From: Kipferlia bialata
Lineage: Eukaryota
Assembly: GCA_003568945.1 (NCBI GenBank)
Contig: BDIP01000035.1
Location: forward strand, 1-40,191
Direction: 5' to 3'
Length of the DNA: 40,191 nucleotides
Both the position numbers and the translations under genes were made by a program. The notes beneath the pieces were generated by a model. That model did no database searches. It saw only the letters and a program-made list of their open reading frames with translations, and was not told where the DNA came from. This document shows positions 71 to 40,146 of this stretch, in pieces (within the stretch, counting starts at the first letter, position 1; the number at the start of each line of letters is the position of its first letter).

Positions 71-1808
71 GCATTCACGCCCCTGCCTTCACCTATCTGT
101 GTGTGGGTGGGTCTGGTGTCGATGCCCCCCTGTCCGTGGGTCTATCAGTGCAGGACATAGACCAGGCTGCTAAGAAGATGGATACAGTCCTCAGGGTAAG
201 TGTACTATATCATAGTATATGATGTATATGTATGTCTGTTTTCTATATGTCTGTACAGGACATATGCCGCAGACACCCTAGAAGATGGATGCAGTGTTAA
301 GGGTATGGATTGACTGAAGTATGTTCACAGAAGTATACAGTTCCCTTCTAACCTCCCAGGACCTTGTTGGCTCCTGCAAGGCCTGGGATGCCACTGTGCC
401 TATCAAGAGATACCCCGATGCAGTGCTGTCCATAGCACGGACACTGGCCATTGTATTGGGTACGTGTATGGTTTAGTATATATATATATATCGAGTGTAT
501 GTATATATGTATCAAGAGATACCCAGATGCAGTGCTGTCCATAGCACAGGATATTGTGCTAGGTGCATATTATAGTATATTGTTGCATGTGGGTGTATAG
601 AGTCTCCTTCTATCGCATAGCTAGGACACTGGCCATTGTGCTAGGTATAGGAGATAGTGTAGTATATTAGAGTACACACATGTATGCACTCTGGCTCCAT
701 CCCTCTCTCTTACCCCAGGTGTTGAGATGCCCGCCCCCCTACTACATATCCATAGCGTATCATCATCCCAAATCCATGACAGATGTATATGTATATCAGT
801 TCTCTATATAAGTACCTCACCCCAGGTGTAGAGATGCCCCCCTCCTACTACCTGTCTGGGTGTGAGACCACCAGACTGCTGGCCAGGATGGACCCACTGC
901 ACAGGGACCATGTGGAGGTATATAGTGTATATACTATATGTATATGCTATACAGATATACTGTCTATTCATATACTATATATGTATTGGCCAGGATGGAC
1001 CCACTGCACAGGGACCATGTGGAGGTGGGTATAGTGAGTATAATATAGTGTATTCTGTGTATATCATGTAGGGAGTGTATGTATACTCTATCGGAGAGAG
1101 AGAGAGAGATAGTGAGCAAGGATGGATCCACAGCACAAGGACTGTGAGGGGGTATACTGTATACTCTATAGTGTTTACTATATATATATAGTGACATTCC
1201 CTCCCCTCACCCAGGCCGAGTCCCGCATTCTGTCTGCCGCTGCACTGGACCCTGAGACACAGGACATGCCATACAGGGCACTGGAGACTATTAGGTGTGT
1301 GTTATTGTGTATATATAGTGTAGATAGTATATAGATATACACTCTGTCTAGAGACACAGGACATGCCATACAGGGCACTGGAGACAATTAGGTGTGTATA
1401 TATATATTATAGTGTGTATAAGACTATATGGTATATATATAGATAGTGTGTCGTGTATTGATATACACTCTGTCTAGAGGAACAGGACATGCCATACAGG
1501 GCACTGGAGACTATAAGGTGTGTATATATGTGTATGTATAGATAGATAGATAGATATATAGATGGTACAGAGACACAGGACATGCCGTACAGGGCACTGG
1601 AGACTATAAGGTGTGTATATGTATATATGAATGGATGGTATATCGTGATATATATGTATGTCTAGAGACACAGGACATGCCATTCAGGGCATTAGAGACT
1701 ATTAGGCATGGTGTATCTGATACCTTCTACATTACTTTACTAACCAGCTATGTATATACTAACCCCCCCCAGGCTCCAGCCCGACCAGAGGCAGACCTCT
1801 CTCTCTCT

Positions 1809-1839
<31 letters not shown>

Positions 1840-3791
1840 GCCATATGTATGTGTGTATATATTTATATGCGTATATACTAACCCCTCTAGGCTCCAGCCC
1901 GACCAGAGGCAGACCTCTCTCTCTATATATATACATATACACATATCCCATAAATATGTTTGTGTATATATATATATATGCGTGTGCACTAACCCCCAGG
2001 CTGCAGCCCGACCAGAGACAGACCCTGATGCGTGCTGTTGTGTTCATATACCCAGACCCCTTGGTGTCGCCATTCCTCAGGTACTTGGGTATATTCAAGT
2101 AATAGATGAATATTGTAAATATCGGCATGTGTATTATTTACTTTATGTATATATATATATACCCTAACCCCAGACCCTCTCTTGCCACATATGGCACAGC
2201 TGTCACCAGAAGGCAGCTAGAGGGTATCATGCTGGTGCTAGTGACCAGTATGGTGGACAAGCTGACACACGGCAATGAGGATGAGGTATATATATGTATT
2301 GGATATTCATGTACCCATGTGTGTGCAGTGACTGGTAATGGGGGGGTCCTTTCATATGTACATCCCTCCATTGTATGCTATCCCCTCACCCCCAGCACTC
2401 CTCTAGCGCTCTCTCCACCTTGCGTACATACGTGGCCAACATAGTATGTGGACTCAGAGGGGCAGACTTGGAGGTACAGGATACATATGTGTATGCCAAT
2501 ACTCTACATAGATACTATATATATATACTACTATGTATGCGTCTCTCACCCCCCAGGTGGTTGAGGCCTTTAGAGAGCTACTGGTCAGGTTCAGATTTGG
2601 GGGCAGGGACTTAGCCATACCCCCTCTCGACAAGACATTCAGCCAGCACATAGGTATGTATATATATGTATATATGTTCACAAATATGTGCAAGTTTTAG
2701 ATTAGCAATAGGGCCATCTCACCCTCAGGCTACTCGTCTGGTGCCCCTACTAGTCAGGCCCTGCTACCTGCTGAGCAGTCACACGACACGGCACACAGGT
2801 ATATACATGTGTAGTATATATACTATTATTAGTAATATGTATATTGCATACTAAAGCATATATACCTGCTGAGCAGTCACACGACACGGCACACAGGTAT
2901 ACACATGTATATTATATATACTACTATTAATATGTATATTGCATACTAAAGCATATATACCTGCGGAGCAGTCACACGACACGGCCCACAGGTAGGAGTA
3001 TAGTGTACATTCACCCAGATACCCACTCTCTACTCCATATCTGAATATATCTGTTTATATATATGTAGTCTCCTCACATCCGTGTACTCATCCCAGACTG
3101 CTGTGCCTCCTCCACCTGGACTGGACCCTTGTGTCTGCACCCTTATGGACAGACTCAGTCACCCAGACACTGCTGTCATACGCAGACAGGTATGGTATCA
3201 ATGTATATGTATAGAGAGAAAGATATATATAGATAGGTATATATGCAGAGAGGTCACCCAGACACCGCTGTCATACGCTGACAGGTAGGTGGTAATTTCA
3301 CAATCTCATAAACTGGACACTCTTCCTACTCATTGTATTACGTTGTGTATTTGGTTTTACTATAGCCATGACACCCCCCCCCCCTAACCTCAGCGAGCAC
3401 CAGCCGACCTGTGGTGTCTCCACCCTGGGCCCTCTGTCCCAGACGCCAACAGAGACAGAGAGACAGGGGAGGGATAGGGCACCTAGCACAGACAGACAGA
3501 CATCTAGGGCACACACCACTGGAGGTAGGATACATATATATATACTGCAAATACACTAACTATGCTGTGAATATACTATTAAAGAGTTGTATATGGTGTG
3601 TGTGTATGCTACTGTCCTTTACCCCTCCAGGCAAGTCCGGTGACAGGGACAGAGAGAGAGAGAGAGGCAGTGACGGCCCCTCTGGTGACACTGGCTCCCT
3701 GGACACAGACACTCTGTCACAGGGGACTGACCCCTTAGAGTATCTAGCTGCTATGTGTCCAGTGCCCACTGCCGTGCAGGTATTGTTATAT

Positions 3792-3834
<43 letters not shown>

Positions 3835-6800
3835 TATATGTTACTATCTAACCATCTCTTAACCCAGGTCACCGCTGTTGTGTCCTCCCTGGCCCGGATA
3901 GTGAGTGATGCCGGACACACAATGTTCACAGAGCTCTACAGGTATCACTGTACATCCATGATACATACATAGACCTGCTCTCACCCCCCAGACAGGTCTA
4001 TGCCTCTGTCGAGCCCTCCCCCTCTGAGGCCCCCTCCCCCTCTCTGCACCACCCGATGGGTAGGCAGGTAGAGGCACAGGGGGAGGGGCAGGAGGCACTC
4101 TCACTCCAGCACAGGTATGTGTATATGTATGTCTATATGCAGTATTCCTTCATGGCGCAATATACATCTGACCCTCCCAGAATCCTTGCCAAGACTGTCA
4201 ACTACCTGACACCCAACTACCTGCAGCAGAGATGTGTACACAGGTACGGATGGATACTATCTATTCATATTATATTATTCATAGATGTAAATCTTTATGC
4301 ATGGAGATGTGTCAAGCTTCAAGTGATAGTTGACGAAGCATGTATGTATACATGACTATCACTCTCACTCCCCCCTCACCCCCCCAGACACAATGCCCTC
4401 GACACTCTCCTCGAGTGCCTGACCACTGTGCCTGCCCTGCCTACAGAGATGGACGTATTGACAGGGAGGTACGGGACAGTGCTTATAGTTATAGTTATAG
4501 AGCTATACATATGAGTACATGTATATGAGTGTATATGAGAGATGGACCTGCTCACAGGGAGGTACGGGAGGGTGTATATGTGTATATATATATATGAGTG
4601 AGTGCATAGACATGTCATATATGCTGGTCGCTTTGTACTTACCGCCTAGGCACGTGTATGTATAGTTATGTAACCTATATTTTTCCTCACCCCCCCAGGC
4701 ATGTCTATGAGCTCCAGGCTGCCTCCCCCCAGGCCGCTAGGCTGATCGTCAAGATGATAGGGGCTAGGGAGAGAGAGAGAGAGAGGCTGAGGGCAGAGAG
4801 GGAGAGAGAGGTCCAGAACGATAGTACCATGGACCTGTCCTCTATTGCCAGGGCATCTGTTACTCTATCAGAGGCAGAGAGGAAGAACATCAGGATATTG
4901 GAGGTACCTTGCTCTCTCGCTCTCTCTATATGTATATTCTAACACGTCATACTCTTGGAGCTCAACCATGCCCTGTATGATGTCTATCTCTTCTCTGTAT
5001 GAATGCTATAGTATACTGTATATAGCATCTTACCCCAGGAGCTTAAGCTTGCCCTGTACGATGTCCTAGATGGCCAGGACATGCCTGACGATGCAGTGGG
5101 GGCATGTCTGACAATGGAGGGGGAGGAGGCACTCATGAACAGGGAGACGCGGTACGGTAGATATAGTTTCATAAAGTATGAAGTATAATGAATTGTATAT
5201 TAGTGTCCATCTCTCTCTCACCCCGAGCCTTGCGCAGTACATGCGTGTATTAATTCATATATATATAGGGTAGTATACTACCCTACTCTCTCACCCCCAC
5301 TCTTAAATATATATACACACATATATATGTACATATATATACAGTACCCGTTACTCATCCTAGCCTTGCTCAGTACATGCGTGTGTGCGGCCACCCCCAC
5401 TCTGCCCAGCTGTTACTAACAGAGGGAGAGACACGGAGGGAGAGAGAGAGAGAGGCCAAGGTGCAGGCAGAGAAGGAGAGGGAGAGAGAGAAGGAGAGGG
5501 AGAAGGAGAGACTCGCAGCCGTGGAGGCCGAGACACAGCGAGAGAGAGAGAGGGAGAGAGAGCTGATGCGTGAGAGAGCCGGTTCCCTCTCCATCTCCCT
5601 TGACATCCCAGTCCCTCCCCCACCCTCCTCCGCCCTTAGCAATGTGTCTTCCACCTCTACATCCTCCACACTCCCTAGTATCACTCTCAGCCAGACACAA
5701 GGGTCTAACAGTGCTACTAAGGCTGAGGCTGAGGCAGAGGCTGAGGCTTCCTTGACCCCTAAGGAGAGAGAGAGAAGGGGAGACAGAGAGGCCATCAAGG
5801 CAATGACGAGGTAGGGTAGTAGACTGCATTTACCTATTCATATATTGCCATGGTTGTCTTACAGAAGGTACCAGCTCCAGATGTCCCTCCTTGGCGAGCA
5901 GCACCAGTGGCATGCCCTGTTCGACATTGCAAAGAGGTATACTTTACACACATAATTACACAAGGAGCTATTCCTGTCTTAGAGGTGGTTTTCTAGCATT
6001 GGCTATGTGTGTGTATTTGGGCATAGTTTAGTATTTATACCCAACCCCCCCCCCCCCATCCCCTCACCCCCAGGTGCAAGGCCGCCCTTGACAGCGGTGC
6101 CTTTGTTGTACCACCCCCCCAGGCTGACATGGTCACACACCTGTGGGGGGAGGTGGACAGGGTGGTGGAGGCATTGAGGAAGGGTGGGTTGCTNNNNNNN
6201 NNNNNNNNNNNNNNNNNNNNNNNNNNNNNNNNNNNNNNNNNNNNNNNNNNNNNNNNNNNNNNNNNNNNNNNNNNNNNNNNNNNNNNNNNNNNNNNNNNNN
6301 NNNNNNNNNNNNNNNNNNNNNNNNNNNNNNNNNNNNNNNNNNNNNNNNNNNNNNNNNNNNNNNNNNNNNNNNNNNNNNNNNNNNNNNNNNNNNNNNNNNN
6401 NNNNNNNNNNNNNNNNNNNNNNNNNNNNNNNNNNNNNNNNNNNNNNNNNNNNNNNNNNNNNNNNNNNNNNNNNNNNNNNNNNNNNNCTATATATGTGTGT
6501 ATTAGTGTAGTTATACATATATACCTGTGGGGGGAGGTGGATAGGGTGGTGGAGGCATTGAGAAAGGGTGAGTGTATAGTCACATCCACACTGCTCATCG
6601 ATTCCGAGAATGCTCTATATATACATGTGTACCCATAGTGTATGTGGATTCTCTCCTCCTCCTCCTCACCCCCCTAGGCACCAAGGTCAACCCCCGCACC
6701 CAATGTATGCTCTATCTCTCTCTCTCTCTCTCTCCTTCTCTCTCTCTCTCTATATATATATATATCCCCCTCACCCCATAGGCACCAAGGTCAACCCCCG

Positions 6801-8334
6801 CACCCCTGCCCTGGGCCAGTCAGATGACATGGGCATACTCAGTGTGATAGCCGCTACACCAGGTATGTATAATGGTATTTCTATATATGTGTATATACGC
6901 AGTGTATGTGTATCTAGTGGTTCAATGGGCATACTCAGCGTGATAGAAGCAACAGCACGTGGGCATACATGTATATATACCATTGGATATTTGAAGAGTG
7001 TCTATCTATCTGTATCTGTATGTATATGTGTATGTGTCTCTTACCCCCCAGCCGCCCCCCTGTCTGTGACTGAGGAGGAGGTTGAGCTGTCCAAGGGTCT
7101 AGTGCTCACGCTGGTACTGACCTCACCGGATATGGTGCTCAGTGCCATATGTCACAACTCGAGGTATGCAGAGGGAAATTGCATATAACTAAATTTGTAA
7201 TACACATTCACACATGTGTAACCGTATGAATGCATATGCCACAACCTAGGGTATATTTTCACACTATTCTATGTTATTCTACATTGCATTTATCTAAGAA
7301 TTGTTCTCTAATCATATATGCATGTATATGATAGATATGTATTTAACCCCCCTAGGATCATGGCCATCTTCCTCCCTGTCCTTGATTCTTATATAGGCGT
7401 GTTCAGTATTATATGTGTTCTATCCATCTCTAACCCCCTAGGATCATGGGCATCTTCCTACCCGTGCTTGAGGCTGCCAAGGCAACGGCACTGGCCGTGG
7501 CAGACGTGGCGGGGGTGCAGGTATATAGAAGTGTGTATACAATCTAACTATTATTATATATAGAGAGTATATGCTTATTTATGTATGGAGAGACAGAGTG
7601 ATCATGGGTAGTGTGAGCGTGGCTGGGTTGCAGATACCTTATGAGTATTTACATACTCCTATGGTCAGGCCCACTCTATGCTACATAGGGATGGCATGTA
7701 TATATGTGTTATGCCATGTATACTTTCATATGTCTATGTATATATATATATGTACATCTCTATATGCACTCTATTACTAACCCTCAGGCCCACTCCATCC
7801 TACATAGGGATAGCATGTATATATATTTTTATGCCATATATACTTTCATATCTCTATGTATATATCCATATTGATATCCTATGTACTTACACCTTGGCCC
7901 ACTCCATCCTGCACCGGGATGGCCTGGCCACTACTGTATATATATATATATACATCTCTATATACTCTCAATATCTCATTAACCCTCAGGCCCACTCCAT
8001 ATTACATAGGGATGGCCTGGCCACGGCTAGGGCCCACATTGCATCACTGAGGCACAGATCATCGACCAGGGACATACCCACTAAGCTGCTAGGTGGGTAG
8101 TAGTGGACTATATATGTATATATCTATATACATATACGGCCCTCACCCCCAGTGTACCAGCTCATGTTCATGCTACCTATCAATATGGTCCAGTATCATA
8201 TATGCATGTGTATTATCATATGTGTTAACCTCTAACCCCAGGTTACCAGTATGTATCATGTAGTTGTATTTACAATGTTCATTAACCCCAGTGTACCAGT
8301 TGATGTTCATGCTGGCCCCCATGGCCACCAGACA

Positions 8335-8367
<33 letters not shown>

Positions 8368-11300
8368 TTTATATGTATATGTATACATGTGCATTAGTAT
8401 TATATATATATATATTAATACTGATAGCTACCTACTGACCCCAGTCTATCAATTGATGTTCATGCTGGCCCCCATGGCCACCAGACTCACAGACATCGGC
8501 ACAGTGCTGTTGATGCTGAGGTGGGTATATTCCCTTGTACATGTATTTATACCATGTGCAATATACTATATTCTATATAGTTAGAATACGTTGTATAGTT
8601 TCAAGTATGTTACTGCATGATGACATATTACCCCCTCACCTCTCACCCCCTAGGGAGAAGCTCCTCGATGGCGTTGCCTCCTCTCTAGTGAATGGGTCGA
8701 GGAGGGCTAGAGTACTCACAATGGCGCAGATGGGTGAGGCTACACATATTACACTTCTACTCTAAATGTGTTTGTATTATATGTTAATGTATATATATAT
8801 TACTGACCCTTACCTCCAGCCCTTGAGGTAGCAGAGTGCTCCGTTGTCCTCTTACTCAAGGAGGAGGCAGCCAAGGAACTGACGGTACGGATTGTATATA
8901 TACAGTATATATACAGTATACATTAGTGTATGTATATATATATATAGATATGAATGTACTCAAGGAGGAGGCAGCCAAGGAACTCACGGTACGGTTGACA
9001 TCTATATACATATGTGTATAGTTATATATGTATATTCTATAGTTATCCTATATCATACTTACCGTATTTCATACCCTTCCCACCCCAATGACGTCAGGAT
9101 GCCCAGCAGAAGACCCGGCACTCCCCCTTCTACCTCCTCGAGTGTCTGTGTGCCATATGGGTGGCAAGGTACGTTCTCTCTCTCTATATATATATATGAA
9201 TTTGTATTCCTCTGCTTGTCTAACATTAATATATGTATATGTATATACTACTACTGCTGATACCTCTTCGAGTGTCTGTGTGCCATATGGGTGGCTAGGT
9301 ATGGGATATGTATATGTATATGAGTCTAAACACAGCTACTTATGTTGTATACAGTCTATTTGGAGCTGTGTGCCATATATGGGTGCCTAGGTACTCTCTC
9401 TCTCTCTCTCTCTCTCTAATTACATATCTGAACATATACATATATGTTACATATCCATATACCTCCTAACCGCCCAGGTCCCCCCAGGTCTGGGAGGCTG
9501 TGTCCACAGTTACTATGTATACATGCTCCCTCCTCTCATATATACATATATATGTGTGTACCTCTATCTCCATATACACACTCAATATAGGTCCCCCGAG
9601 GCCTGGGAGGATGTGTCCACTGTGTCCCAGCTGGTGGCATCTAGACGGATGATGCTCGCTGGGCTGGCAGACCAAGTGGGAGGTATGTTGTGTATATATA
9701 CAGACGATATGTAGAGGCATAATGCTATTGTATTGCAGTGCTCTCTATCAATTGACGATATCTGTCTTACCTCACCCCCAGGCCTTGGTCAGCAGGTCCT
9801 GAAGCACCAGAACCTGATCAGAATGATAGACCAGACAGGTGGGTAGAGATAGAGTACATATATAACGCAGCAATATAGTATATGCATGTATGAGTATTAT
9901 AGGAGTATGCACAGAATGATCGACCAGACGGGTATGTGCATCTATGTCTGTATATATGTATGTATAGTCATATCAGTATCATATGATACTCACTTACCAG
10001 CCGAGAACACCGTTGTGGACATGACCCTGTTGTATGTTCTATATATGGATGTATATATATGGTTATATGAATAACATGACCCTGTTGTATGTTCTATATA
10101 TGGATGTATATATATGGTTATATGAATATATACCTATAACTGTCTATCATACTCACCCCCCAGCCGAGAACACTGTTGTGCACATGACCAGACGGGCCAG
10201 GCACCTGGGGAGACCTCTCCTGGGGCTAGGTAGGGAGAGGGTATATGTGTGGAAATAATCACATATGCATATGTGTATGTATATATCTCTCCCTAACCCC
10301 AGGCATGGCCTACCGCAAGGGCACCGAGCTCAGGCACTACTGGAGCCACATTGGCTACATCATTGAGAGCAGCCTGTGCCACATGGCATGCGGCAGATAC
10401 GAGGTGTGTGTATGATATATACTGCTGTGTATTCTGTTATATACACAATCTACTCACCCCCAGACTGCCCTCTCTGTCCTAGTCTCCAATGACGTGACAG
10501 GGGATGGTAGAGTGGCATCAGTCATGCTCGCACAGACAAAGGTGTGTATGTGCACTGTTTACACTACAAATATTTTACCTAGTAAAGTGTAGTCTCTCGC
10601 CCCTAGAGCCGCATCCTCCCCGCCATGGGCCAGCACACTGTCCATTATTAATACTCTATATATATATATTATACAATGTAATACTTATAGTGAGTATTCA
10701 CCCCAGGGCCGCATCCTCTCTGCCATGGGCCAGCACACTGTGTATAATACTATCTATATATGTAAATATTGAATTATCAGTGTATTATGCTATCCTTACC
10801 TCAGGGCCGTATCCTGTCTGCCATGGGCCAGCACACCGAGGCCCAGCGGGTATTGGAGGGGGCAGTGGCTACAGCTAACGGGGCCAGTACAACGGTACGG
10901 ACAGTGCTGATACATCATGTATACCAGAATACATTTCATTGTACTCTACCCTTCTGCATATATATTTCTGTACATGTTTAAACTGTATTCACCCCAGGCC
11001 TGGCTCCACCTAGGCCAGTCCATGGTGCATGACCTGCACTCACCCTCCCGTACCCAGAGGGGCAGACTACCCACTGACGCTGAGGCCCAGGCCATACACG
11101 CATCATCCCTGTCTCTCGTGCACTCTCTCTTGTCTAGCTGTCTGTTAGGTGGGTAGTTAGTGTATCTGCATATAGTACTCACTACGTATTTATGTGTACA
11201 ATATTTCACAACCCCTTACCCCAGGCTGCCGCAGATACACCCTCCGTGGCGCCAGGATGGTGTGCTCTCTCCTCAGGGCTGTATATGCACCCCCATACCC

Positions 11301-13945: not shown

Positions 13946-13984
<39 letters not shown>

Positions 13985-18213: not shown

Positions 18214-18329
18214 ATTATGTGAAGTAGAGGGTAAAGAGTGGAGTAGTACAGTAATGGTTCGTACTGATTCCATACTGTTGGATGAGGACTTCACTTCAAC
18301 AAAGATGGTTTCTCATGTACTGAGTGAGG

Positions 18330-18599: not shown

Positions 18600-18714
18600 C
18601 TAGCAGTTGAGGGTGAGTGCGCTCTCTCTCCTCCTGCCCCTAGTGGCTGCACTCAGCCGACCCCTAACGGGCAGAATGCCCCAGTTGCCAGGGTTGGTGT
18701 GCAGCAGCACATAC
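18600..18714 (-). CDS. Terminal exon of the USP7-like gene
   Basis: Acceptor ctcaaccccag, then (R)YVLLHTNPGNWGILPVRGRLSAATRGRRESALTLNC-TAG, in phase with exon 18966-19058. Confidence 0.75.
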
Positions 18715-27700: not shown

Positions 27701-29133
27701 TATGTATGAACAATAGGCTCCCTGATGAACACAACTACATACTAATGAAAGATTGAAATATAGCACTGGATAGATACCTCTCCTCCCTGATTCGCAGTGA
27801 GTATAGTCTAAGTATATATATATATAGATATATATACTTATAGATACTTACACATACATATTTCACCAATCTGTACCTCTGCTCCCTGATTCCCAGTGAG
27901 TGAACGTATAGTCCATTCGAATACATGTATACATACATTAATGACTACACCAATATCCTCGTACCTCTCCTCCCTGATACCGAGTGAGTGCTTGAACCCA
28001 GCCACAGCCACAGCCACTCCCTCTCCCTCTGCCTCTCTCTCCTCTATGTATGCAAACAGCCTTCTGCTCTTGAAGGTGGAGGCAGGCTCGGTCCACTCGT
28101 GCCACCTGGGTATTAGAGCTAGCATCGTTACATAATGACAGTACATATGTATATACAATCACATATGACTATAATTATAGATATGTGTGTATACACAATG
28201 TGTATATATATATATATTAAGTGTAGAGGCAGGCTCAGTCCACTCGTGCCACCTGAATGTGAGTAATACACTTAGAACATCAATACATATATACAGATCT
28301 TACTGCAAATACAGACATATATATACCTCAGCCTCGTCACAGGTCTGATGCATGCCGCGGGTGCTGTCTGGCCTAGTCTACTGGAGTACAGGGTGGAGGT
28401 GGGCTGGTGGTGCATTCTGGGGTTAGTATGGTAAGAGATACACGAGCACCAGTTGCATAGTACCACACACCTACTTCTCTCGCCCAGGGTGTACAGCGTG
28501 ATGGGTGCTCTACCAGTAGTGGCACTAGTAGTACCAACAGTGACCCCACTATCAGACCCTGTCCCTGTGCATGTCACATTGTCATAGGCACACACTGCAG
28601 AACTGGGGGGTTAGGGATGCATGGAATATGAAGTATATATATTAATATGGAGAAATATGTATGTACCTGAATACCCTCACACATTCTTTCAGATTCCCGT
28701 ATGATATTGGTGTTTCACTATATATCTCCACCAATCCACACATATATACATATATATCTACACATCTGAATCCCCCCATGCTCTGTGTCATATTGTAGTG
28801 CCAGTATATATTATATGCATACCCCTATATATATATGTCGGCATATACATCAATACATTACTATATATATATGTGTGTGTGTACCTGAATCCCTCCATGC
28901 TCTCTGTCATATTGTAGTGCCACATTGATGTATACACGATATATATGCACCTATACATATACATATACATATACATATATACTCATATATATAGGTATAC
29001 TCACGTATATGTACCTGAATCCCTCCAAGCTCTCTGTCATGTTGTCGTGTGCATATGCAGTGGACTCGACAGACAGGGCACAGTCTAGGCCTGGTATTAT
29101 ATACGTCAAAGTGGATATATATATATATATAGA

Positions 29134-29176
<43 letters not shown>

Positions 29177-31851
29177 CAACAGACAGGGCACAGTCTAGAC
29201 CTAAGGGGTGAGATATCAATACCAACACATCATAAGACAGAGAAAGAGACAGAGAGAGAGAAAATAACTCAACAGACATGGCACAGTCTAGACCTGGGGG
29301 GTAAGGAGTTCTTAATGAATAGACCAACAACACATATCCGTATCCACATAAATATATATATACATATTAATACATACCTGCCCCCCTGATCCATCCCAAA
29401 AAATACGTGTACATATGTATATGAAAATATGTATAGTATACACTATATCCACACCCATACCTGCCCCCCTGAGCCCATCCCTCAGGCACTGTGGTGTGAC
29501 TATAAGCTACATATATACTCTATATATATTAACTATCTATACATGTATAACTATATAATCATGCACCTGCCCCCCTGAGCCCATCCCTCAGGCACTGGGG
29601 TGTGACTATCCTATATTGTACCCATGAGGCAGCCTTGATCTTCTCTCTCTCCCTCTGGACCTCGAGGTCATCGGCTGACTGTCATTAGGTATATATATAT
29701 ATGTGTGCGTATGGTTATGTATATATACATATTGAGTATAGGTCATCGGCTGACTGGGGGTGAGGAGGAGTGTACACAACATACAATGAAAACAAACATA
29801 CATTGATACATACATGTTCACCCACCCGGAAGTAGTGCAGCAGGGCCCATATGTATATGCACGTCTCTGTAGTACTAACAGTAATACACATATATACTCA
29901 ATAAGTGTGTCTATATATACCTGGAAGTACTGGAGCAGTATCATATATATGTATATATATATATATATATACTTATGTAATGATATATCCTTATGCAAAC
30001 AGTCACATTTCTTCCCACCTGGAAGTACTGGAGCAGGGCATCGGGTACAGAGAGTGCCCCCTGTATGCTGTCCTTCCTGGATAGGACAGGGCATCTCTCC
30101 CCCTCTGTCTCTCCCTCTCTCTTGGCACGGGCTGCCTCTACACGACGAAGGGCCCTGTGATTAACACTAGGCAACCATTGTGGAAAATCAATTGAATGTA
30201 TTTACATTTATGTGGTGAGTAGACATATTCGTAAGCCCTTGTGACGTGTGGATATGGTAGATGTCATAGTCTGATAGTATACACACAACCGTGTTCATAC
30301 GTATTCCCCACCCGTTGGTAGGCATCGACAGTGCCAGGTGGTACGGTTACACACACATTCTACCCCATGTACTATACACTATATATACCTGTTTGTAGGC
30401 ATGGAGAGTGCCAGCTGTGAGTCCTGTACATAGCACAGCATGTAGGCAGTGGGGGCAAAGCGGCCTGGGTTATCAAAATATTCTAGTACTATAGCAAATA
30501 TTGAAATTAATACCATGTTTCCATATCTATAGCATGTTGGCAGTGGGGGCTAAGCGGCCTGGAGTCAGGGGTAGAACACTGTCACAATTCATACCAAATA
30601 GCAACATATACAAATGTACATGTACATATGCACAGACATATATAGCCAAAACAACATGATAACCCAAGAGACTCCGATATATGTGACACAGGCATCAAAT
30701 ACCCGACACATGTTCATACCCATACCTGTTCCCCCCCATGACTACTACAATCATATATGTATATACATATGTATGTATAGGATATATGATATATATATAT
30801 ATATATATATCATATTCATACCCATACCTGTTCCCCCCCATGACTCATCACAGACATCGTCGAAGGACAGAGTGTCAACCCTAGGAGTTAGGTAGATGCA
30901 TAGAGATGAATACATGGACACATAGTAACTCTACATTGATCTGAAAACATAGAGGGTCAACCCTGTGGATGACATATTCAGCTAGACAAATACAATTCAT
31001 ATGAAACATTCTTCATGGAGAGTGTCGACCCTAAGGGTGAAAAGGGTAAACACACCTATACATATATGTATATTGCCCCATAAATATAGGCTGTATATGT
31101 ACACTATATATACACACCAAACCTCGTGTCATTGCAGCACATCCAGTATGTACATACTATATACTCTACTGTCATATATGTATTTGTATATTTGAATATA
31201 TATTATACCTCTTGTCATACTATATACTCTAATATCCTATATACATACACTATAGACATATACATACTATATACACACCATACCTCGTGTCATTGAAGCA
31301 CATCCAGTCTGCATCTCTGTACTGAGCCTGGTAGTGGGCAGTGGAGACCTGGTATGAGAAACAGATATGAATATGTATAATATACACACATACAAAAAGT
31401 ATAATACATATATATATACACACACACTACCTCACCGTGCCCCAGCCTCCCATACAATAATATATATATATATAGTGACATAACATTGAAGGCATGCATA
31501 TATAGGAATAGGTGGAGACCTGGGACAGGGGCAGAAATGTATATATATATATATGCATACACCACACCATACCTCGCTGTGCCCTAGTCTTCCATCGAAC
31601 TCTGGCATGGGTCTCTCTCTCTCTCTCTCTCCAACCGCCCCTCTCTCAACCTATATGTATATACAAATATATAATACACCTATACACCATACCTCACTGT
31701 GCCCCAGTTATCCATCGTACTCAGGCCTGGGTCTCTCTCTCTCTCTCCAACCGCCCTCCCATCAAACTCTGGCATGGGTCTCACAAAGGCATAGTAGTGA
31801 CCACCACCTGTATGTAAGAGGATATATATACTACATGCATTTATATATGTG

Positions 31852-31882
<31 letters not shown>

Positions 31883-34800
31883 GGAACTCTGGCATGGGCC
31901 TCACAAAGGCGTAGTAGTGGCCAACGCCTGGAGGGTGAGAGAGAGTACACAATAGACACTACACAAAGGTATATACACACATACCTGTCCCCCCGTGGTG
32001 CACTAGCACACTGTACAGACTGTATAATGTATATATAGGCATACATATACATGTATATATATATATTAGTATAAGTATGTATATTACTTATATGTATACA
32101 TACACACCTGTCCCCCCGTGGTGCACCAGCACACTGTACAGACTGTATGAAGTGTCTGACACAGGGCACCGGCGGAGCTTCTTGAGAGGTGAGAAGGGGA
32201 GGGAGGGGGGGCGGGGAAGCATCTTTGAACATACACATACATACATATATATATACCAGATGACTACCATACCCTGAACATCTTCCAGAAGTGTGGTGGG
32301 GGAGGGGGGGGGTGAGGAGAGGCATTCTTGATCACAATAACATACAAATATACATATATACACAAATATGCATATGTACTCACGCATCATACCCTGAACA
32401 TCTTCTTGAAGTGTGTCTGTGTCTTGGCTGTCTCGGTGGGGTGGGCCCTGGGGATAAGAGGTGATATATATGTACTACAGGTACAGTACATACAAATGAT
32501 ATGTGTGTGTACAAAAAAAAAAAAAAATCACTTATATATATATATATATGTGTCTTGGCAGTCTCGGTGGGGTGGGCCCTGGGGGTGAGATAGGATATAT
32601 AGGATATAGATACGATACATATACATATGATACTCGCACACACATACATTAATACTGTATGTTGGTGGTGTGGCCTCTGGCGGAAAGAGGTACGCGGAAT
32701 CGGCACTCACACCATACTGTATATACCCAGTGTATCTCTGTAGACATGTTTATATATGAATAGATATATACCTTAGGTACTGAGACACCGGGCTGTCACT
32801 GCCTATTATGCTATATATTCAAAACTATATAGAGTCCTACACTACTATGCAGGATATATATATATATATATATACATTGTACATAATATGTGTACATACC
32901 TCAGGTACTGTGAGACTGGGCTGTCACTGCCGATGAAGGGACTCATCTCTAGCCGGGCAGGGTACTCCAGTCTGGGGGTGAGACATGGGTATATAAGGTA
33001 TGTTATATATGAATAGACCTATAGAGTATTCATCTCTAGTCTGGCAGGGTACTCAAGCCTAGGGGTCAGACATGTGTCTATAAGGCAAATGACATACATA
33101 TATTGGACATGGATAAATTCATATATAGTAAATGTGCACATGTATACATATATTGATAGCATGCTCATCTCTAGCCTGGCAGGGTACTTCAGCATAGGGG
33201 TGAGATGTGTCAGCATCAAGGTCAAGTGAGTCACATAGATATTAGCATATTGGTTGTGTATTGTGATGTCCTCATCTCACAGTTGGCTGGGTACTCAAAC
33301 CAAGGGGTGAGAGTATGGTAGAAATGAGTTTATGGCAATTGAATAGTCTTACATATAGTATCAATATAGATATATATACATCCACCCCCATCTCGTTGTG
33401 ATCTTGACATGGATATATATACAGTTATAAGTACGTATACATTGTAATGGACAATGAATGGACACATTGAAATATACAGTAGTTTTGTGAAGTATACATG
33501 TATATACCCACCTCGATGTGATCTTGACGGGCTGGAAGGTACGGAGGTCAAGGTCAAACCTGGGGGGTTAGTGTGGCCATGCATGTATATAGTAAGAAAT
33601 ATACTAGGGTAAGCATGAGTCCAGACATGTCAACACTCTCGAGAAACCATACGTCATTAGAAGTATCCCAGCATACACACGTCTGTTGAGCGTTGTATAT
33701 ATATGTATATACATACTAGCCTCTTCAGTGTCATGATTCTGACTAGTGGAAGGGTGAGAACATACACGCACATCATACACCAACTACATATACAATGTAT
33801 GTATGAATAGTACCCCATACTACATATATGTAAATATACACTTAAACATATGTATACCTCTTCAATGTCATGAACATGACTGGGGGCAGAGTGGTCAGGG
33901 CCTCTCCCATCACAGCGGGGTGCTTGCCCTGGCCAGGCACCTCGTACTGGTATTAGGGGATACAGACACACTATACACATACTACTATAGAGACAGTATC
34001 TCTAAATACACTGAGTAGTGCTTGCCCTGGCCTGGCACCTCGTACTGGGGTGAGAGAGGGAATATGAGTAACAAACAGATTGATGTAGAACTATATGGAG
34101 AGGTATATGAGTTATGAGGTAGAAGGAAGAGAGTGCTTGCCCTGACCTGGCACCTCGTACTGATGCATAAGGGGATGAATGGATATAGAGAGAGTGCTAG
34201 AAGAGGGTCTGAAGTATATCAATAACGCAAAATGAAAGTCTTCCACTCAAATCACTGTGCCTTTACCTTGTTCTGCCCGTCTAACACAGATGGCTGTAGC
34301 ATGGACCGCAGGGAGTCATATACGGTACTGCAGCCTGGTGTGTTAGATATGAAACCCCATTCAATATACGTATAAAGAACACCAAAAATTCGTATATATA
34401 TCTATATTGATAGACAGGGAGTGTCATCGTGTGCCATAGAGGGTGATACAGCCTGGGGGGTTAGTGTGCACCTGATGTATATAGCGAGAGAGAGGTTGAG
34501 AGAACGGTAATCAAAAGATGGTGCTACACCCTACCTTCATGTGACTAGTATATACCTATATATATATATGGATATGTATATACATGTACATATGTATACA
34601 TATATCATACCCTTGACTGGCAGTTGGAGTGTCAACTGGGGTGCAGACTCAGACTCAGAGACATAGTCTATGTCGGTGCAGCGGATGTATCTAAAGGTTA
34701 GTATAGAGTACAGGGTTAGTATAGATTACAGGGGGGGATATGGAGTATACATACGAGAGTACTAGTATCAAAGTCTCACACACACAGTCTATAATGGATA

Positions 34801-37800
34801 TGTCGGTGCAGCACACACATTCATATACATGCAACAAATGTCACTGAATAATGCTGAATAATGCTGAATGACACATCCCCCACCTACTAGTCTTGACCCT
34901 AAACATGTCAATGAAGGCACAGGGTATGTGTACTATTATAGTAGAGGCCATAAGTGTATAATAATAACACATATATATATTGGTACATAGAACTAGTGTC
35001 ATACCTGCTAGTCTTGACCCTGAACATGTCGATGAAGGCCTGCTGTCTGTCCTTGTCCTCCCCTGGGGTTAGGAGATACACATGAGAAGAATACCTAGGG
35101 AGAGATATATCACAAATTATATTGCACTGCTAAGGCCTTGTACTGTCTGTCCTTGTCCTCCCCTGGGGTCAGATACCTATTGATATATATGTACATATCT
35201 TCACATAGATAGATTGATACGTGAACATAGACACAAATGGGCATATACTTATACGATATGGTATTGTATCCTGTCTGTCCTTGTCCTCTCCTGGGGGATA
35301 AGAGAGAGGGAGGTATAAATATACATACACACACACACATATATATACTCCATATATCCATAATACATACCTAGCTTCTCCTCAATCTTCTCAAACAGTA
35401 TGTGCATCAGCTCCCCCACATCATGCTGCTGGAATGCCTCGGCACCAGACCAACCGAAGGCAGCGGTCAGTTGCCTATGGTAAGGATGTGCATATGAACA
35501 TCACTACTTGTACAATACTATGGGTATATAAGGATATCTCCCCCCACCGACTCCCTCGAAGGGAGATGACGGAAGCTGTATGTGGTAAACGAATGATATA
35601 CTTGCATAAAATCTCTCCGTCCCACATCCACATACACACATGAATACCCTTGAACATATCCCACTATTATGCAACACCGCACATACACACAAGCAACTAT
35701 ACCTATCGTAGATTAATGCAACCATACCTAGTGGACACACTCTTAGGCGCTGTCTCCATCCTGTAGAACAGCCTCTGCAGCTCTAGGAGCATGCCTAGAT
35801 GTGAGAGGTGTATGGTTGAGTATTAGTATACATTCAATACACAAACACATACTCCCACCTGCCCCTTCTCTGGCCACCACTGCAATGCCTCAATCCATGT
35901 ATTATAATATATACTATATATACACAGTATACATATATATACTATATATATATACTATATATATATGGATATGTACCTGCCCCCTCTATGGCCACCACCT
36001 GTGCAGTGTCCATTCTTTATATACCATATATATACCATATATATACCATATATATACCATATACTTATACTATATATATACCATATATATANNNNNNATA
36101 CCATATATATACCATATACTTATACTATATATATACCATATATATACCATATCTATACTATATACTGTATATACTATATATGTATACTATATACCTACCC
36201 CCTCTATGGCCACCACACAGCATTGCCTCTCTATCCATATATCCTCTCAAGGTGTGTATATGTAGCTGTTGGGTATATGTATCTGTTTCTGTACCTGCCC
36301 CCTCAATGGCCACACATTATTGCATATTCATTATATACAATGTATGTTTATAAATTCATATGCTCTAGAAGTATCCAAGTGTACCTGCCCCCTCTATGGC
36401 CACCACCTCTGTGCCCTTCCGCTGCACAGTATTGCAGCCATACACAAGGTGCCTGGCAGTGAGGGGATAATGACATACATATATAGCTCTATACTATATA
36501 CACATAGATGTATGTGCTGCACAGTGTGACACCCATACACGAGGTGCCTCGGGTAAGGTGGTAATACTGTATCACAGTATACTAGGAGATAGTACACTCA
36601 GGCGTATATATGTGTGACACCCATAAACGAGGTGCCTGGGGTAAGGGTTGGGACACACAATGTGAACATGTTGGTTATCCCCTAACGTATACTCTACCCT
36701 TAGTCCAATATATGAATACACAACCCTGAAACTGACACCCATACCTCAGTCCTGACAGGTGGTGCATGGACTGCAGGAGACTGTTCATATAGCACGTGGC
36801 ACCCTGGGGTCAATAGAGTATATATATATATATACATGTATATATATTATGAATTATGTTCTACAAAATATAATGCAGTATATAATAGTAACAGCTGTAG
36901 AATGTTCATGTAACAGGTGGCACCCTGGCATGAGTGATCGATGAATGTATATAGTGCGTATTTCCCTACTGATATTAATGAAAAGAAATACACAATCCAT
37001 GCTGCCACTGCGACCAAGGTTGAATCACTCATGCCTCCCTCAATATACACTAATACCAATATCATTGATGTATATAAAAATACAATACCCGTACCTTGTT
37101 GAACAGCCCAATGTACCCATGCCTCCCCCTCCAACATCTATATGTATACACCTAGATACACACATATATACTCATAGATACATACATGTATATATTACCC
37201 TACCAACCTGGTTGAACAGTCCGATGTACCCGTGCCTCCCCCTCCTCCTGATGGTGCTGGAGGCCTTCCTGCCAGGGGCACTGTCCCTCTCTCTCTCTCT
37301 CTCGTCCTCCACACCTCTGTCACTTGTCACACTGGGGGTTAGTGATAGAGGAGAGAACACATACATATATTGGTTTACGTACACCTTGGATGGACATATA
37401 CCCACCTGGACTCTGCCTATAGATATATATACATATCATCAATGTATATATACTCATATATATACATATCCATACCTTGATTCTGTCTCCCCGTCCCTGT
37501 CGTCCTGTGCCTCAGAGGCAGCATCAGAGAGGAGGGTCACATCGACCTAATGTCAGTGCACTACACAACTATATTTACTATATGCACATATGTAATGTAT
37601 TTTAATATATAGTGCCTCAGAGGCAGCATCAGAGAGGAGGGTCACATCGACCTGAAGTCAGAGTATCCAATATTCATTAATACTAAACTACATAGACACA
37701 CAACATACCCCCACTATACACCCCCCGTTGTGTACATAGTCCATGTCCTCCAGGGTATGGATAGGGGCAGTATATATACTATACACCATATACTATATAT

Positions 37801-38809
37801 ACTATACATACTATTTATACACTCACCCCCACTATGCACCCCCCGTTGTGTATATAGTCCATGTCCTCCAGTGTCTGGACAGGGGCAGTATATACAAATA
37901 TATATATATATACTATCAATGCACTATACTATGCATATATGGAGTTCATACCCCCACTATACACCCCCCGTTGTGTATGTAGTCCATGTCTTCTAGTGTC
38001 TGCACAGGGGCAGGCTGGTTGTAGTAGGGGTCACGGCCATAGCCATAGCTAGTGTGCTGGGGTTAGTAAACAATTGAATATATATATATACTCATTAATA
38101 CATACATACAAAGACGTTGTATTGTAGCTGTCACGGCCATAGCCATAGCTAGTGTGCTGGGGTTAGTGGTATAGAGAGTCGGTATAGTATGAGGTATATA
38201 GTATTGCAGAAATATACTGGACTATTGCTGTCAGCTGTGCTGGGGGTTAGTATAGCACAGATAGCTAGGCTACAAGGAAAATAGTTAATATATCTGTTGT
38301 ATATACATATATACTGTTGTATATATTTACATTGCGGGAACAATGCACCTCTATATTTATACATATATATATATGTGTGTGTATCTGTTTCGCGTACCAG
38401 TCTGGCAATAGCTATATATGTAGGTATATATATACATCTGCTACAAGTACCAGTCTGGGCTGTGGGAAGAATGCACGGAACCCATGCTGCAGAGAGCCTG
38501 GGGGTAAGAAAATATGGAGGAAAAAACTGATTCCACACTCAATGAGACAGCCTGTGGTGGGAAAGAGAGAGAACACGCCTATTGTACACATATATTGGAT
38601 ATATGTTATATGCCTTATCTCTCTCGAATGTCCATGTTGACCTGACCATGTATATACTGTTGTCCATTCATGGAAGATATTCTAATATCGATACAAACAC
38701 TGTATGAATACATTATACATTACCTCTCTCGAATGTCCACGTTGATCTGACAATACATTATATATATAAGTATAATAATGCATATATTACTAATTGTACT
38801 ATTAGTATA

Positions 38810-38850
<41 letters not shown>

Positions 38851-40146
38851 AAGATACCTCTCTCGAATGTCCACGTTGACCTGACCGGTCTCTTCCTCTG
38901 TATCCACTGTAAGGAGGGGTCGGATATGTCGGAGACAGTCAGACGGTCATCGCTGGGGTAAGATAATACTACATATATATACACATATATATATATATAG
39001 AGAGAGAGGGGGGGGGGGAGGGGGTCGGATATGTCAGAGACAGTCAGGCGGTCGTCGCTGGGGTAAGGTCTCAAAACTATTGAGTCAAAAAGCTCACAGA
39101 TACTGAATAAAGTGATACGACAACAGAAGTATACTACATATACGTATCACAGGTAGTAACTAGTAGTGAATAAGGAATATATATACCTTACAGGACTGCT
39201 AGCAATTGATGCCGACACAACAGAAGCTGTCATCTCTGGGTATATATATATGTATGTAGACTCACTATAAATATACATATACTTGTATACTAATGTACCT
39301 CACGGGGCTAGATGCTATTGATGCCGATACCACAGATGCCGTCATCTCTCAGTATATCTACTTATATTTACATATACTAGATATGTATAGATAGTCAACA
39401 TTATCAGTAGCGTATACCTCACAGGACTAGATGCAATAGATGCCGACACAACAGAAGCTGTCATCTCTGGGTATATATATATATATATAAACATACATAT
39501 ATATATATATAATCCCATAGCATAGACAGTAACTAATAGAGTATACCTGACAGGACTAGATGCCATTGATGCCGACACGACCGATGCCGTCATCTCTGGG
39601 TCTGGGGACAGGTCTCGGACAGTGTTGTACAGATCACACAGGAGGAACTCGACCTAGGGGTAAGACTAGCATATGTAGTATCTATAGTATTCCTCCTCCC
39701 CCACCCCTCACTGTCACTCTCCTTGACACTATGCTCAGGTATATACAGACACAATTTTCTCTTTATAGAGTGTCTATATGACTATTTATATATATATATA
39801 TATATATATATCATACACCATACCTCTGCTCTTCTCCCCCATGTGTCTGTGTCACTCTCCTTGACACTGGGCACTATGCTCAGGTATATGTTCCTCTTAC
39901 CACTGATGACCAGACGCCACTTGGTCTGGGGGGTGAGAGAGATGGAGAGAGAGAAACAAGGAAACAAAGATACATAGACAGATAGATAGAGGGAGTCCTG
40001 CCACTGATGACCATGTGATAGAAAGATGCATATGCACTATAGAAGAGGTATGAATGCACACACTAGTGCATACCTCATTGAGTGTGAATGTGGGCGAGTA
40101 TATGTGGTCAGGGGCAGACACGTAGTGGGGGATGCGCCACACAAAC
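18600..40146 (-). CDS. USP7: Multi-exon USP7/UBP15-like ubiquitin carboxyl-terminal hydrolase (MATH, USP catalytic domain, UBL region, C-terminal tail); 5' end lies beyond the window
   Basis: Spliced peptide contains MATH-like FVWRIPHY..DHIYSPTFTLNE|TKWRLVI..IYLSI, Cys box GYIGLFNQ|GATCYMNSLLQSM, ALELQRLFYRM, QLTAAFGW...AFQQHDVGELMHILFEKIE, LPPVMFMTLKR|F, KITSRLEYP, His box YSLYSVLVHHGGT|GGGHYYAFVRP, WMCFNDT|RV, TAYMLCYV, UBL-like TGDILCAQ and tail YVLLHTNP...RESALTLNC* (cf. USP7 EKAIKIHN). Exon phases were continuous wherever checked. Confidence 0.85.
23081..23550 (-). repeat. Acceptor plus exon 5' end (DTYGMTKYTP) repeated five times
   Basis: cag|GACACCTAYGGNATGACCAAG-like units lie near 23110 (working), 23209, 23328, 23416 and 23543. 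Confidence 0.95.
31284..32180 (-). CDS. USP His-box exons
   Basis: SYSLYSVLVHHGGT|GGGHYYAFVRPMPEFDGRA|VSTAHYQAQYRDADWMCFNDTR; the catalytic His and Asn/Asp motifs are present. Confidence 0.85.
36018..36195. repeat. Intronic minisatellite/microsatellite (ATATATACC-type) containing a short N run
   Basis: Repeated ataccatatatat units; Ns near 36092. Confidence 0.85.
36745..37332 (-). CDS. USP Cys-box exons (about 37208-37332 and 36745-36803)
   Basis: RHGYIGLFNQ | GATCYMNSLLQSMHHLSGLR, joined by a phase-0 intron. Confidence 0.9.
39185..39601 (-). repeat. Exon 3' end plus donor (PEMTASVVSAS[M/I]ASSPVR|gt) repeated four times
   Basis: Four copies of about 53 nt, spaced roughly 110-130 nt apart. 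Confidence 0.95.
39823..40146 (-). CDS. Two exons (40074-40146 and about 39823-39924) encoding the first strands of the MATH/TRAF domain
   Basis: FVWRIPHYVSAPDHIYSPTFTLNE followed by TKWRLVISGKRNIYLSIVPS matches the F.W.I...S.....S..F....WRL....YLS MATH pattern. Confidence 0.75.

What the first reader, a model, noticed from the sequence alone, without database searches (positions are those of the whole stretch)
196..40020. Introns are filled with codon-aware 'echoes' of the neighbouring exon ends
Seen: dozens of introns in both large genes (about 40 echoes counted by eye in the + strand gene alone) hold 15-55 nt partial copies of the adjacent exon. Downstream copies are the exon's 3' end plus GT donor; upstream copies are the acceptor plus 5' end. 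They stack up to four deep at about 90-130 nt spacing. They are not whole exons, since each lacks one splice site, yet their differences from the working exon are mostly synonymous, including two-base Leu swaps (CTG/TTA, TTG/CTC, CTC/TTA) and Arg swaps (CGG/AGA). Established: a dead tandem duplicate decays neutrally, giving roughly three replacement changes per silent one. Inference: the echoes were once-functional versions of the exon end. One model is one-sided homologous recombination or repair with a divergent allele, primed in the conserved exon and resolved in (TA)n microsatellite, which installs a new exon end and pushes the old one into the intron. Alternatives are gene-conversion donor cassettes or usage in unusual splicing. 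I know of no description of this architecture.
Basis: partly seen in the sequence, partly recalled or inferred. Interest (0 to 1): 0.92.

Follow-up and report, generated by a model that had tools for sequence, protein, structure and literature searches.

The report
Introns storing displaced exon-end alleles
In the free-living protist Kipferlia bialata, half of the introns of two genes hold short, now-dead copies of the neighbouring exon's end with its splice site that differ from the working exon mostly by silent changes, so they are likely former working versions pushed aside by recombination between very divergent alleles, which would make one genome a fossil record of its species' hidden diversity.

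Summary
Confirmed. The window is Kipferlia bialata. Curated gene models (51 and 56 exons) match the annotation and the RNA offsets. 109 echoes were found where 0.4 are expected by chance, in 55 of 105 introns. They are strictly polarised and about 103 nt apart. Echo versus exon: dN/dS 0.12 (0.09-0.18); plain duplication plus decay predicts about 0.5 and is rejected. Echoes are dead now: splice dinucleotides decayed 4.6% (like dN), some carry frameshifts, and mRNA carries the working bases. Yet changes private to inner echoes are also silent (23:5). The intron beside the splice site is usually unrelated to the working intron, even for perfect echoes. So each echo likely was a working exon end in another lineage. 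Re-assembled DNA contigs of the same sample carry the tandem layout at full depth. The layout itself is published (amphioxus 'mirages'), and this scan noted similar arrays in sea-urchin DNA. The density, silent bias and unrelated spacers were not found in print. No TA microhomology was found. New variant of a known kind; mechanism inferred from one strain.

The parts
71..15457 (+). Large gene, 51 exons, 2182 aa, 5' end outside the window; protein not identified (TPR-like by eye only). 34 echoes in 19 of 50 introns, none in introns 39-50
   Evidence: Pfam on 7 single exons blank; homolog search blank
18600..40146 (-). USP7/Ubp15-like deubiquitinase, 56 exons, 1866 aa, 5' end outside the window (K. 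bialata KIPB_000315 = P0001 plus two exons the annotation skips). 74 echoes in 36 of 55 introns
   Evidence: RNA contig offsets 686/686, 455/455, 648/648
987..1151 (+). 2 donor echoes of exon 3 (987-1024 is identical over 38 nt, with an unrelated intron flank; 1119-1151 is decayed)
1351..1705 (+). 4 donor echoes of exon 4; the farthest has lost its GT
1773..1915 (+). 2 acceptor echoes of exon 5
2863..2991 (+). 2 donor echoes of exon 9; here the spacers are homologous (a classic mirage unit)
7669..7931 (+). 3 acceptor echoes of exon 25
10607..10738 (+). 2 acceptor echoes of exon 35
280..11650 (+). 19 single echoes. Donor type: 280-302, 616-644, 3253-3284, 4538-4561, 6523-6567, 6925-6958, 7618-7633, 8957-8988, 9261-9298, 9912-9931, 11622-11650. 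Acceptor type: 719-732, 4958-4984, 5228-5248, 6678-6701, 7356-7385, 8292-8333, 9478-9507, 10001-10026. Gapped extras at 510-547, 8164-8174, 9366-9385
39187..39472 (-). 3 donor echoes of exon 3 (51-55 nt): 19 silent codon changes against the exon including TCT>AGC, with a non-nested A/B/A pattern
38619..38751 (-). 2 donor echoes of exon 4
37709..37888 (-). 2 donor echoes of exon 6 (62 nt each, the longest)
36516..36635 (-). 2 acceptor echoes of exon 10
35859..36313 (-). 4 donor echoes of exon 10 (a 6-N gap lies inside the array)
35143..35290 (-). 2 acceptor echoes of exon 13
34018..34159 (-). 2 acceptor echoes of exon 16
33030..33193 (-). 2 acceptor echoes of exon 18
30951..31030 (-). 2 acceptor echoes of exon 23
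   Evidence: inside one DNA contig
29826..29938 (-). 2 donor echoes of exon 25
29378..29503 (-). 2 donor echoes of exon 26
29172..29293 (-). 2 acceptor echoes of exon 27
28766..28919 (-). 2 donor echoes of exon 27
27778..27902 (-). 2 donor echoes of exon 30; the RNA carries the working bases
26516..26719 (-). 3 donor echoes of exon 33, inside one DNA contig with the exon
24585..24726 (-). 2 donor echoes of exon 38
23191..23543 (-). 4 acceptor echoes of exon 42, each with its own variants; spanned by one 2182-nt DNA contig with 0 differences; the RNA carries the working bases
22257..22457 (-). 3 donor echoes of exon 44 (the outer two are identical over 35 nt, with barely alignable spacers)
19646..19748 (-). 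2 donor echoes of exon 53, both identical to the exon, with unrelated flanks
18782..39057 (-). 29 single echoes. Acceptor type: 39057-39021, 38156-38130, 37651-37612, 36924-36899, 32578-32549, 31927-31885, 30558-30531, 29753-29740, 28252-28226, 27689-27678, 27130-27120, 22183-22161, 21531-21520, 20218-20193, 18800-18782. Donor type: 37132-37095, 34918-34884, 33736-33721, 33408-33392, 32803-32772, 32295-32273, 32025-31985, 31147-31123, 30743-30726, 30337-30312, 26090-26080, 23914-23904, 22898-22871, 19963-19947. Gapped extras at 39744-39693, 24184-24171, 19581-19557 and others
31432..31807 (-). His-box exon 21 and three echoes whose shared end is longer than the working exon as assembled; boundary uncertain, left out of the counts
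   Evidence: read by eye

Best explanation
Inferred steps: a broken end invades the other allele inside the exon. It copies that allele's exon end, its splice site and about 40-140 nt of its intron, then rejoins the other broken end. The new exon end now works, and the old one, with its own intron, sits one unit further out. Invasion by the other end gives the mirror-image acceptor echo. Unequal crossover or conversion between an echo and an allele's working end would then lengthen stacks and reuse the same junction. Shown: the layout, the polarity, the silent bias, the present decay, the unrelated flanks and the age order. Inferred: the allelic source, a silent diversity of about 0.2-0.3, and the repair pathway.
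For: dN/dS 0.12 (bootstrap 0.09-0.18), dS 0.29, dN 0.035 over 108 echoes. It stays 0.08-0.12 across four score thresholds with or without trimming, and is the same inside and outside the UCH core. Simulated duplication plus decay gives a silent fraction of 0.40 (max 0.54 in 200 runs) against 0.70 observed. Changes where an inner echo differs while an outer echo equals the exon are 23 silent: 5 replacement; in exon/e1/e2 triplets 12:2, p 4e-6. A single-lineage time series gives 2-4 such silent changes, and 0 of 300 runs reach 12. The intron flank resembles the working flank above the control 99th percentile in only 8 of 107 echoes, and in 1 of 11 perfect echoes of 18 nt or more; copies with 10% or 25% substitutions would pass in 100% or 81%. 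Post-death decay read from GT/AG is 10 of 216 sites, like pN (p 0.34) and unlike pS (p 4e-12). The nearest echo is closer to the exon than the farthest in 13 stacks, farther in 2, tied in 10. Donor and acceptor stacks never interleave in 18 of 18 introns. Only 2 of 27 ends of exons over 150 nt carry echoes, against 71 of 182 others (post hoc cut). Silent differences have no GC/AT direction (58:53). Context from papers: metamonads lack NHEJ and Fornicata use Dmc1 without Rad51A (PMC8516963, section 8 read); Dmc1 tolerates mismatches (PMC8682777, PMC7809202, abstracts in a listing); crossovers in hypervariable Schizophyllum favour exons (PMC4209137, abstract and section 12).
Against: No second allele was seen. 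DNA contigs laid on 20192-32200 show only 2 other letters at >=92% likeness, and no other strain or relative was found. So high diversity and unalignable allelic introns are assumed, not shown. No intron-like (TA) microhomology at the exon-side junction: z -0.3 to -1.2. Stacked echoes share the junction within 1 nt in 18 of 48 pairs against 8.6% at random, which independent breaks would not give. Measured against the pooled decay rate instead of the inner echo's own replacements, the 12 private silent changes are only p about 0.10. Weak residual similarity remains within about 20 nt of the splice site (0.38-0.50 against 0.29-0.38 at positions 7-12), and a few units have plainly duplicated spacers. 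The exon-length effect is not significant without a threshold (p 0.10).
Confidence: 0.5

Rival explanations
1. Old tandem duplications of exon-intron boundaries (classic mirages) whose spacers have long since diverged, while the exon-like part is repeatedly overwritten by gene conversion or unequal crossover from working exon ends of divergent alleles. It shares the core inference (echoes sample once-working alleles) but needs no illegitimate join after the first duplication.
For: Shared junctions in 18 of 48 stacked pairs. Perfect echoes beside unrelated flanks. Residual similarity near the splice site. Some homologous spacers, such as + exons 9, 5 and 25. No microhomology needed.
Against: Differences per echo are not overdispersed (dispersion 1.11, p 0.22; 11 perfect against 7.3 expected), as a mix of self-converted and allele-converted copies might be. 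30 of 48 pairs do not share a junction. It does not by itself explain the scarcity at long exons.
Confidence: 0.27
2. Ordinary duplication within one lineage, with the working exon gathering silent changes about 7 times faster than the dead copy decays (for example by exon-targeted or RNA-templated mutagenesis), and TA-rich spacers scrambled by slippage.
For: A 0.25 versus 0.035 rate pair reproduces the pooled silent fraction (0.73) and the exon-odd and e2-odd triplet classes. It needs no hidden diversity.
Against: It gives 2-4 silent changes private to the inner echo against 12 observed; 0 of 300 runs reach 12. With equal rates it gives a silent fraction of 0.40. I know of no 7-fold exon-specific mutation excess (recalled).
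Confidence: 0.1
3. The echoes are in use now, as alternative or recursive splice partners or as conversion donor cassettes kept under selection.
For: 56 of 62 donors keep GT and 42 of 46 acceptors keep AG; no stop among 240 changed codons.
Against: RNA contigs carry the working base at all 18 diagnostic sites of 9 echoes covered. Frameshifting indels occur (one further one read by eye). Splice-site loss runs at the replacement rate. Replacement changes are no more conservative than random (BLOSUM -0.33 against -0.59 +/- 0.25), and the lack of stops is p 0.13. Conversion frequent enough to impose selection would erase a dS of 0.29 (inference).
Confidence: 0.07
4. Assembly artefact: haplotypes or strains laid in tandem by a short-read assembler.
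For: The published assembly is short-read SPAdes of a genome judged diploid (PMC5874029, parts 1-3 read). The window has two N gaps inside echo arrays. The laid DNA run may be the source of the window, so it is not independent data.
Against: Logan contigs of that run carry echo and working copy in one piece for 20 of the 40 echoes in the laid stretch, with 0-1 differences, at depth 346-453 against 441-511 for most unrelated contigs in the joint table. Polarity, age order and decay are not what misassembly makes.
Confidence: 0.03

Closest known systems
[quoted passage not shown]
   Same: Partial exon plus one splice site, stacked in the adjacent intron; both 5' and 3' boundaries affected; normal splicing not disturbed; unit size of the same order (10-160 bp).
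   Different: Mirage units are 81-100% identical over the whole unit, intron part included, and evolve in concert at a few loci. Here the intron part is unrelated in about 9 of 10 echoes, differences are silent-biased (dN/dS 0.12), and half of all introns in two unrelated genes are affected (48% of intron DNA).
Homology-facilitated illegitimate recombination and displaced 'orphan' arrays (Vibrio T6SS immunity arrays, Rhs orphan ends; PMC5361080 passages; PMC3240628 abstract in a listing)
   Same: Homologous anchor at one end, illegitimate join at the other; the new variant goes in next to the anchor and the old one is pushed outward, so arrays are ordered by age.
   Different: Bacterial, gene-sized, by horizontal transfer, and the displaced genes may be selected. 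Here it is eukaryotic, about 100 nt, at splice junctions, and the displaced pieces are dead.
Exon-confined crossover in hypervariable Schizophyllum commune (PMC4209137, abstract and section 12)
   Same: Recombination between genotypes about 14% apart is confined to conserved exons.
   Different: The parts I read describe no displaced exon ends, and such diversity is not shown for K. bialata.
Tandem exon duplication and mutually exclusive exons (recalled)
   Same: Silent-biased differences between neighbouring copies.
   Different: Echoes lack one splice site, decay and are absent from the main mRNA.

Membership tests
Amphioxus-type mirage | Tandem copies spanning an exon-intron boundary, next to the working exon | tested here: met
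   109 copies against 0.4 by chance; wrong side 0 and 2
Amphioxus-type mirage | Copies keep AG or GT in many but not all units | tested here: met
   56 of 62 GT, 42 of 46 AG
Amphioxus-type mirage | Normal splicing unaffected | tested here: met
   RNA contig offsets match the model; working base at 18 of 18 diagnostic sites; contigs drop rare variants
Amphioxus-type mirage | Minisatellite-like units, similar over their whole length including the intron part | tested here: not met
   Flank above the control 99th percentile in 8 of 107; spacer pairs within a stack above it in 4 of 45
Amphioxus-type mirage | Copy-number polymorphism or somatic instability | not testable with these tools
   One strain, contigs only
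Homology-facilitated illegitimate (one-sided) recombination product | Homology on one side only, with unrelated sequence brought in | tested here: met
   91% identity on the exon side, near background beyond about 20 nt into the intron
Homology-facilitated illegitimate (one-sided) recombination product | Older copies displaced outward | tested here: met
   13:2 (10 ties), p 0.006; replacements higher in outer ranks, p 0.027
Homology-facilitated illegitimate (one-sided) recombination product | Microhomology at the illegitimate join | tested here: inconclusive
   No enrichment of intron-like sequence at the junction; CAC in 10 of 92 junctions against 3% background, post hoc; the donor sequence is unknown
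Homology-facilitated illegitimate (one-sided) recombination product | The donor allele exists elsewhere | tested here: inconclusive
   No second haplotype or relative found
Mutually exclusive or alternative exons | Each copy has both splice sites and appears in mRNA | tested here: not met
   One site only; not in RNA contigs

The most novel reading that the evidence does not exclude
Throughout the K. bialata genome, recombination between alleles 20-30% apart at silent sites, and unalignable in introns, keeps swapping exon ends and parking the old ones in introns. Much of the intron DNA would then be a stacked, age-ordered archive of past alleles. That would give population genetics, and evidence of cryptic sex or homolog exchange in a metamonad, from a single genome, plus a new route of intron growth and splice-site turnover.
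Probability: 0.4. Interest if true: 0.9.

Novelty: new variant of a known kind. Interest (0 to 1): 0.74.

Why it matters
If the echoes are displaced alleles, a single protist genome records former allelic diversity and its time order. That bears on whether metamonads recombine: PMC8516963 states that no sexual or parasexual process has been directly observed in the group. It would also give a mechanism for mirages, whose origin PMC3087553 calls unclear. About half of the intron DNA here would be recombination debris (48% of intron bases lie in echo units). And the K. bialata spliceosome, reduced to 87 of 174 proteins (PMC6679479, passages), would have to pick the true site among up to four near-perfect decoys, which makes it a natural test bed for exon definition. 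In practice, echoes may mislead gene callers: the annotation skips the two His-box exons of this USP7-like gene.

Tried and rejected
No whole genome is held for this window, so the genome-wide extent is untested. An automatic gene finder absorbed echoes as mini-exons and was replaced by hand curation. A search for relatives of P0001 in metagenome contigs gave 0 confirmed of 98 pattern matches. An intron-motif scan gave 32 loci; none is shown to be Kipferlia, and only L003 looks similar in composition. No run is on record as RNA; X2 is RNA by guess. Reads were laid on 20192-32200 only, so the + gene and the rest of the - gene have no read check. The + gene protein was not identified: homolog search blank, Pfam on exons blank, and the representative search was still queued when I stopped. 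TA microhomology test negative. Overdispersion test negative. Conservative-replacement and no-stop tests not significant. A fixed total unit length was not supported: unit length rises with echo length, slope 0.65 +/- 0.17. The earlier-findings look-ups for this genome and for look-alike stretches were empty. Literature searches with no paper on this pattern in Kipferlia, or on silent-biased boundary copies. The genome paper has 0 hits for 'duplicat' and 'microsatellite'; its supplements were not read and could bear on this.
Full report
What the window is. [quoted passage not shown] A single exon retrieves P0001, named K. bialata KIPB_000315, on a 40,191-nt contig. It carries a UCH domain, and its closest relatives are USP7/Ubp15-like at 31-43% identity. 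I curated 51 exons on the + strand and 56 on the - strand; both read without a stop, 2182 and 1866 aa. The - model equals P0001 at 1824 of 1824 residues and adds two exons holding the GGHY His box. Offsets in contigs of run X2 (RNA by guess) match the model in 3 of 3 multi-exon checks.

The observation. I aligned each exon end, anchored at its splice site and blind to codons, along the adjacent intron. At score 9 or more there are 63 donor-type and 46 acceptor-type copies; 10,718 non-adjacent pairs predict 0.20 and 0.21, and the wrong-side controls give 0 and 2. All are listed. One echo at the uncertain end of - exon 21 was dropped (including it leaves dN/dS at 0.12). The 108 kept lie at 73 of 209 exon ends and in 55 of 105 introns, are 9-62 nt long, stack up to four deep and recur every 103 nt (IQR 93-120). 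Donor and acceptor stacks never interleave in the 18 introns with both, and echo units make up 48% of intron DNA. A gapped search listed 12 further matches, mostly older or indel-bearing copies.

Is it physical? Contigs of DNA run X1, assembled separately though perhaps from the same reads, match 20192-32200 with 0-1 differences per listed piece. They hold echo and working copy in one piece for 20 of the 40 echoes there; the table is cut, so the other 20 are unshown, not contradicted. Their depth of 346-453 is close to the 441-511 of most unrelated contigs in the joint table. Tandem-laid haplotypes would be at half depth and lack junction words (inference). Only two other letters appear, so no divergent second haplotype is visible at 92% likeness, although contigs can hide variants.

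Silent bias. The 263 differences in 3030 nt fall 52/26/185 on codon positions 1/2/3; dS 0.29 (0.23-0.35), dN 0.035 (0.026-0.046), ratio 0.12 (0.09-0.18). It holds for either gene, either type, nearest echoes only, and stricter thresholds. Simulated through the same detector, that null gives a silent fraction of 0.40, at most 0.54 in 200 runs, against 0.70.

Dead now. GT/AG changes are 10 of 216 sites, matching pN (p 0.34) and not pS (p 4e-12); they are 5 of 146 in nearest and 5 of 70 in outer echoes. Replacements rise with rank (p 0.027) and are no more conservative than random. A 7-nt deletion and a 2-nt insertion break frames. RNA contigs show the working base at 18 of 18 diagnostic sites of 9 echoes. 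The nearest echo is closer to the exon than the farthest in 13 stacks, farther in 2, tied in 10.

Once alive in separate lineages. Where an inner echo differs while an outer one equals the exon, changes are 23 silent to 5 replacement, against 25% silent expected; in exon/first/second triplets 12 to 2. A one-lineage time series with a fast silent clock fits the other classes but yields 2-4 such changes, and 0 of 300 runs reach 12. Against the pooled decay rate the excess is only p about 0.10, so this leg rests on the inner echoes' own low replacement count. A tandem duplication also copies the intron next to the splice site, yet the flank passes the control 99th percentile in 8 of 107 echoes and in 1 of 11 perfect ones, where 10% or 25% diverged copies would pass in 100% or 81%. 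Identity falls from 91% on the exon side to 0.38-0.50 at intron positions 7-12 (control 0.31-0.38) and to near background beyond 20 nt. This is how orthologs or old alleles compare, not fresh duplicates (inference).

Mechanism. Most likely (0.5): recombination between divergent alleles starts in the exon, copies through the splice site into non-homologous intron and rejoins illegitimately, so the new end works and the old one moves outward; the mirror event gives acceptor echoes. It explains the polarity, the single splice site, the age order, the foreign spacers and perhaps the scarcity at long exons (2 of 27 ends over 150 nt against 71 of 182; post hoc; p 0.10 without a cut). It does not alone explain shared junctions in 18 of 48 stacked pairs (8.6% by chance), which point to unequal exchange between existing units. 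The main rival (0.27) is old mirages refreshed by conversion from allelic working ends. Both need lineages about 0.2-0.3 apart at silent sites, which I could not observe: the shared core stands at about 0.77. The lineages could be population alleles or long-diverged homologs of a diploid (PMC5874029 infers diploidy from k-mers). Pathway context: no NHEJ in metamonads, and Dmc1 without Rad51A in Fornicata (PMC8516963, passages and section 8); Dmc1 mismatch tolerance (abstracts in the listing); exon-confined crossover in hypervariable Schizophyllum (PMC4209137).

What is known. [quoted passage not shown] So the layout is known. The whole-unit similarity that defines mirages is not met here. Displacement arrays by homology-facilitated illegitimate recombination are proposed for Vibrio T6SS and Rhs loci (PMC5361080 passages). 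I found no paper on this pattern in Kipferlia, or on silent-biased boundary copies (subscription papers and supplements not seen). A metagenome contig of unknown origin, L003, shows a four-deep acceptor stack with alike acceptors, three equal junctions and 6 silent to 14 replacement codon changes in an inferred frame. That is nearer the classic neutral mirage and a small, weak contrast.

Verdict. The feature is real and pervasive in this window. It is a new variant of the mirage architecture, marked by silent bias and unrelated spacers; interest 0.74. The allelic origin is a well-supported inference from one strain and two genes, and other isolates would decide it.

Noticed in passing
window 32180-32108 and 31807-31755 (-): The public annotation P0001 skips these two exons, which hold the catalytic His box. 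The first seems to use an AAG acceptor and the second a GC donor (or a GT three bases on). Three echoes behind the second share an end several codons longer than the assembled working exon: either a real truncation or a local misassembly.
   Followed up: partly
window 15653-16570 and 17341-18312 (-): Two intronless paralogous ORFs (about 306 and 324 aa stop to stop, 44% identical) lie between the two large genes; only sub-threshold Kelch matches.
   Followed up: partly
window 11915-14817 (+), introns 39-50: Twelve consecutive introns without any echo, against 34 echoes in introns 1-38; the exons there are longer.
   Followed up: partly
L003:236-993 (-): Metagenome contig of an unidentified microsatellite-rich eukaryote with four stacked acceptor-plus-exon-start copies running into (CA)n; exon unidentified.
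   Followed up: partly
window 6194-6486 and 36092-36097: Both N gaps lie inside introns with donor echoes, so some arrays may be longer than assembled.
   Followed up: no
both genes, for example 5364-5810 and 20528-20902: (GA)n microsatellites inside exons encode Glu-Arg runs; the long low-complexity exons are nearly free of echoes.
   Followed up: no
L026: Several dispersed GC-rich direct repeats at 100-400 nt spacing in an AT-rich metagenome contig; not examined.
   Followed up: no
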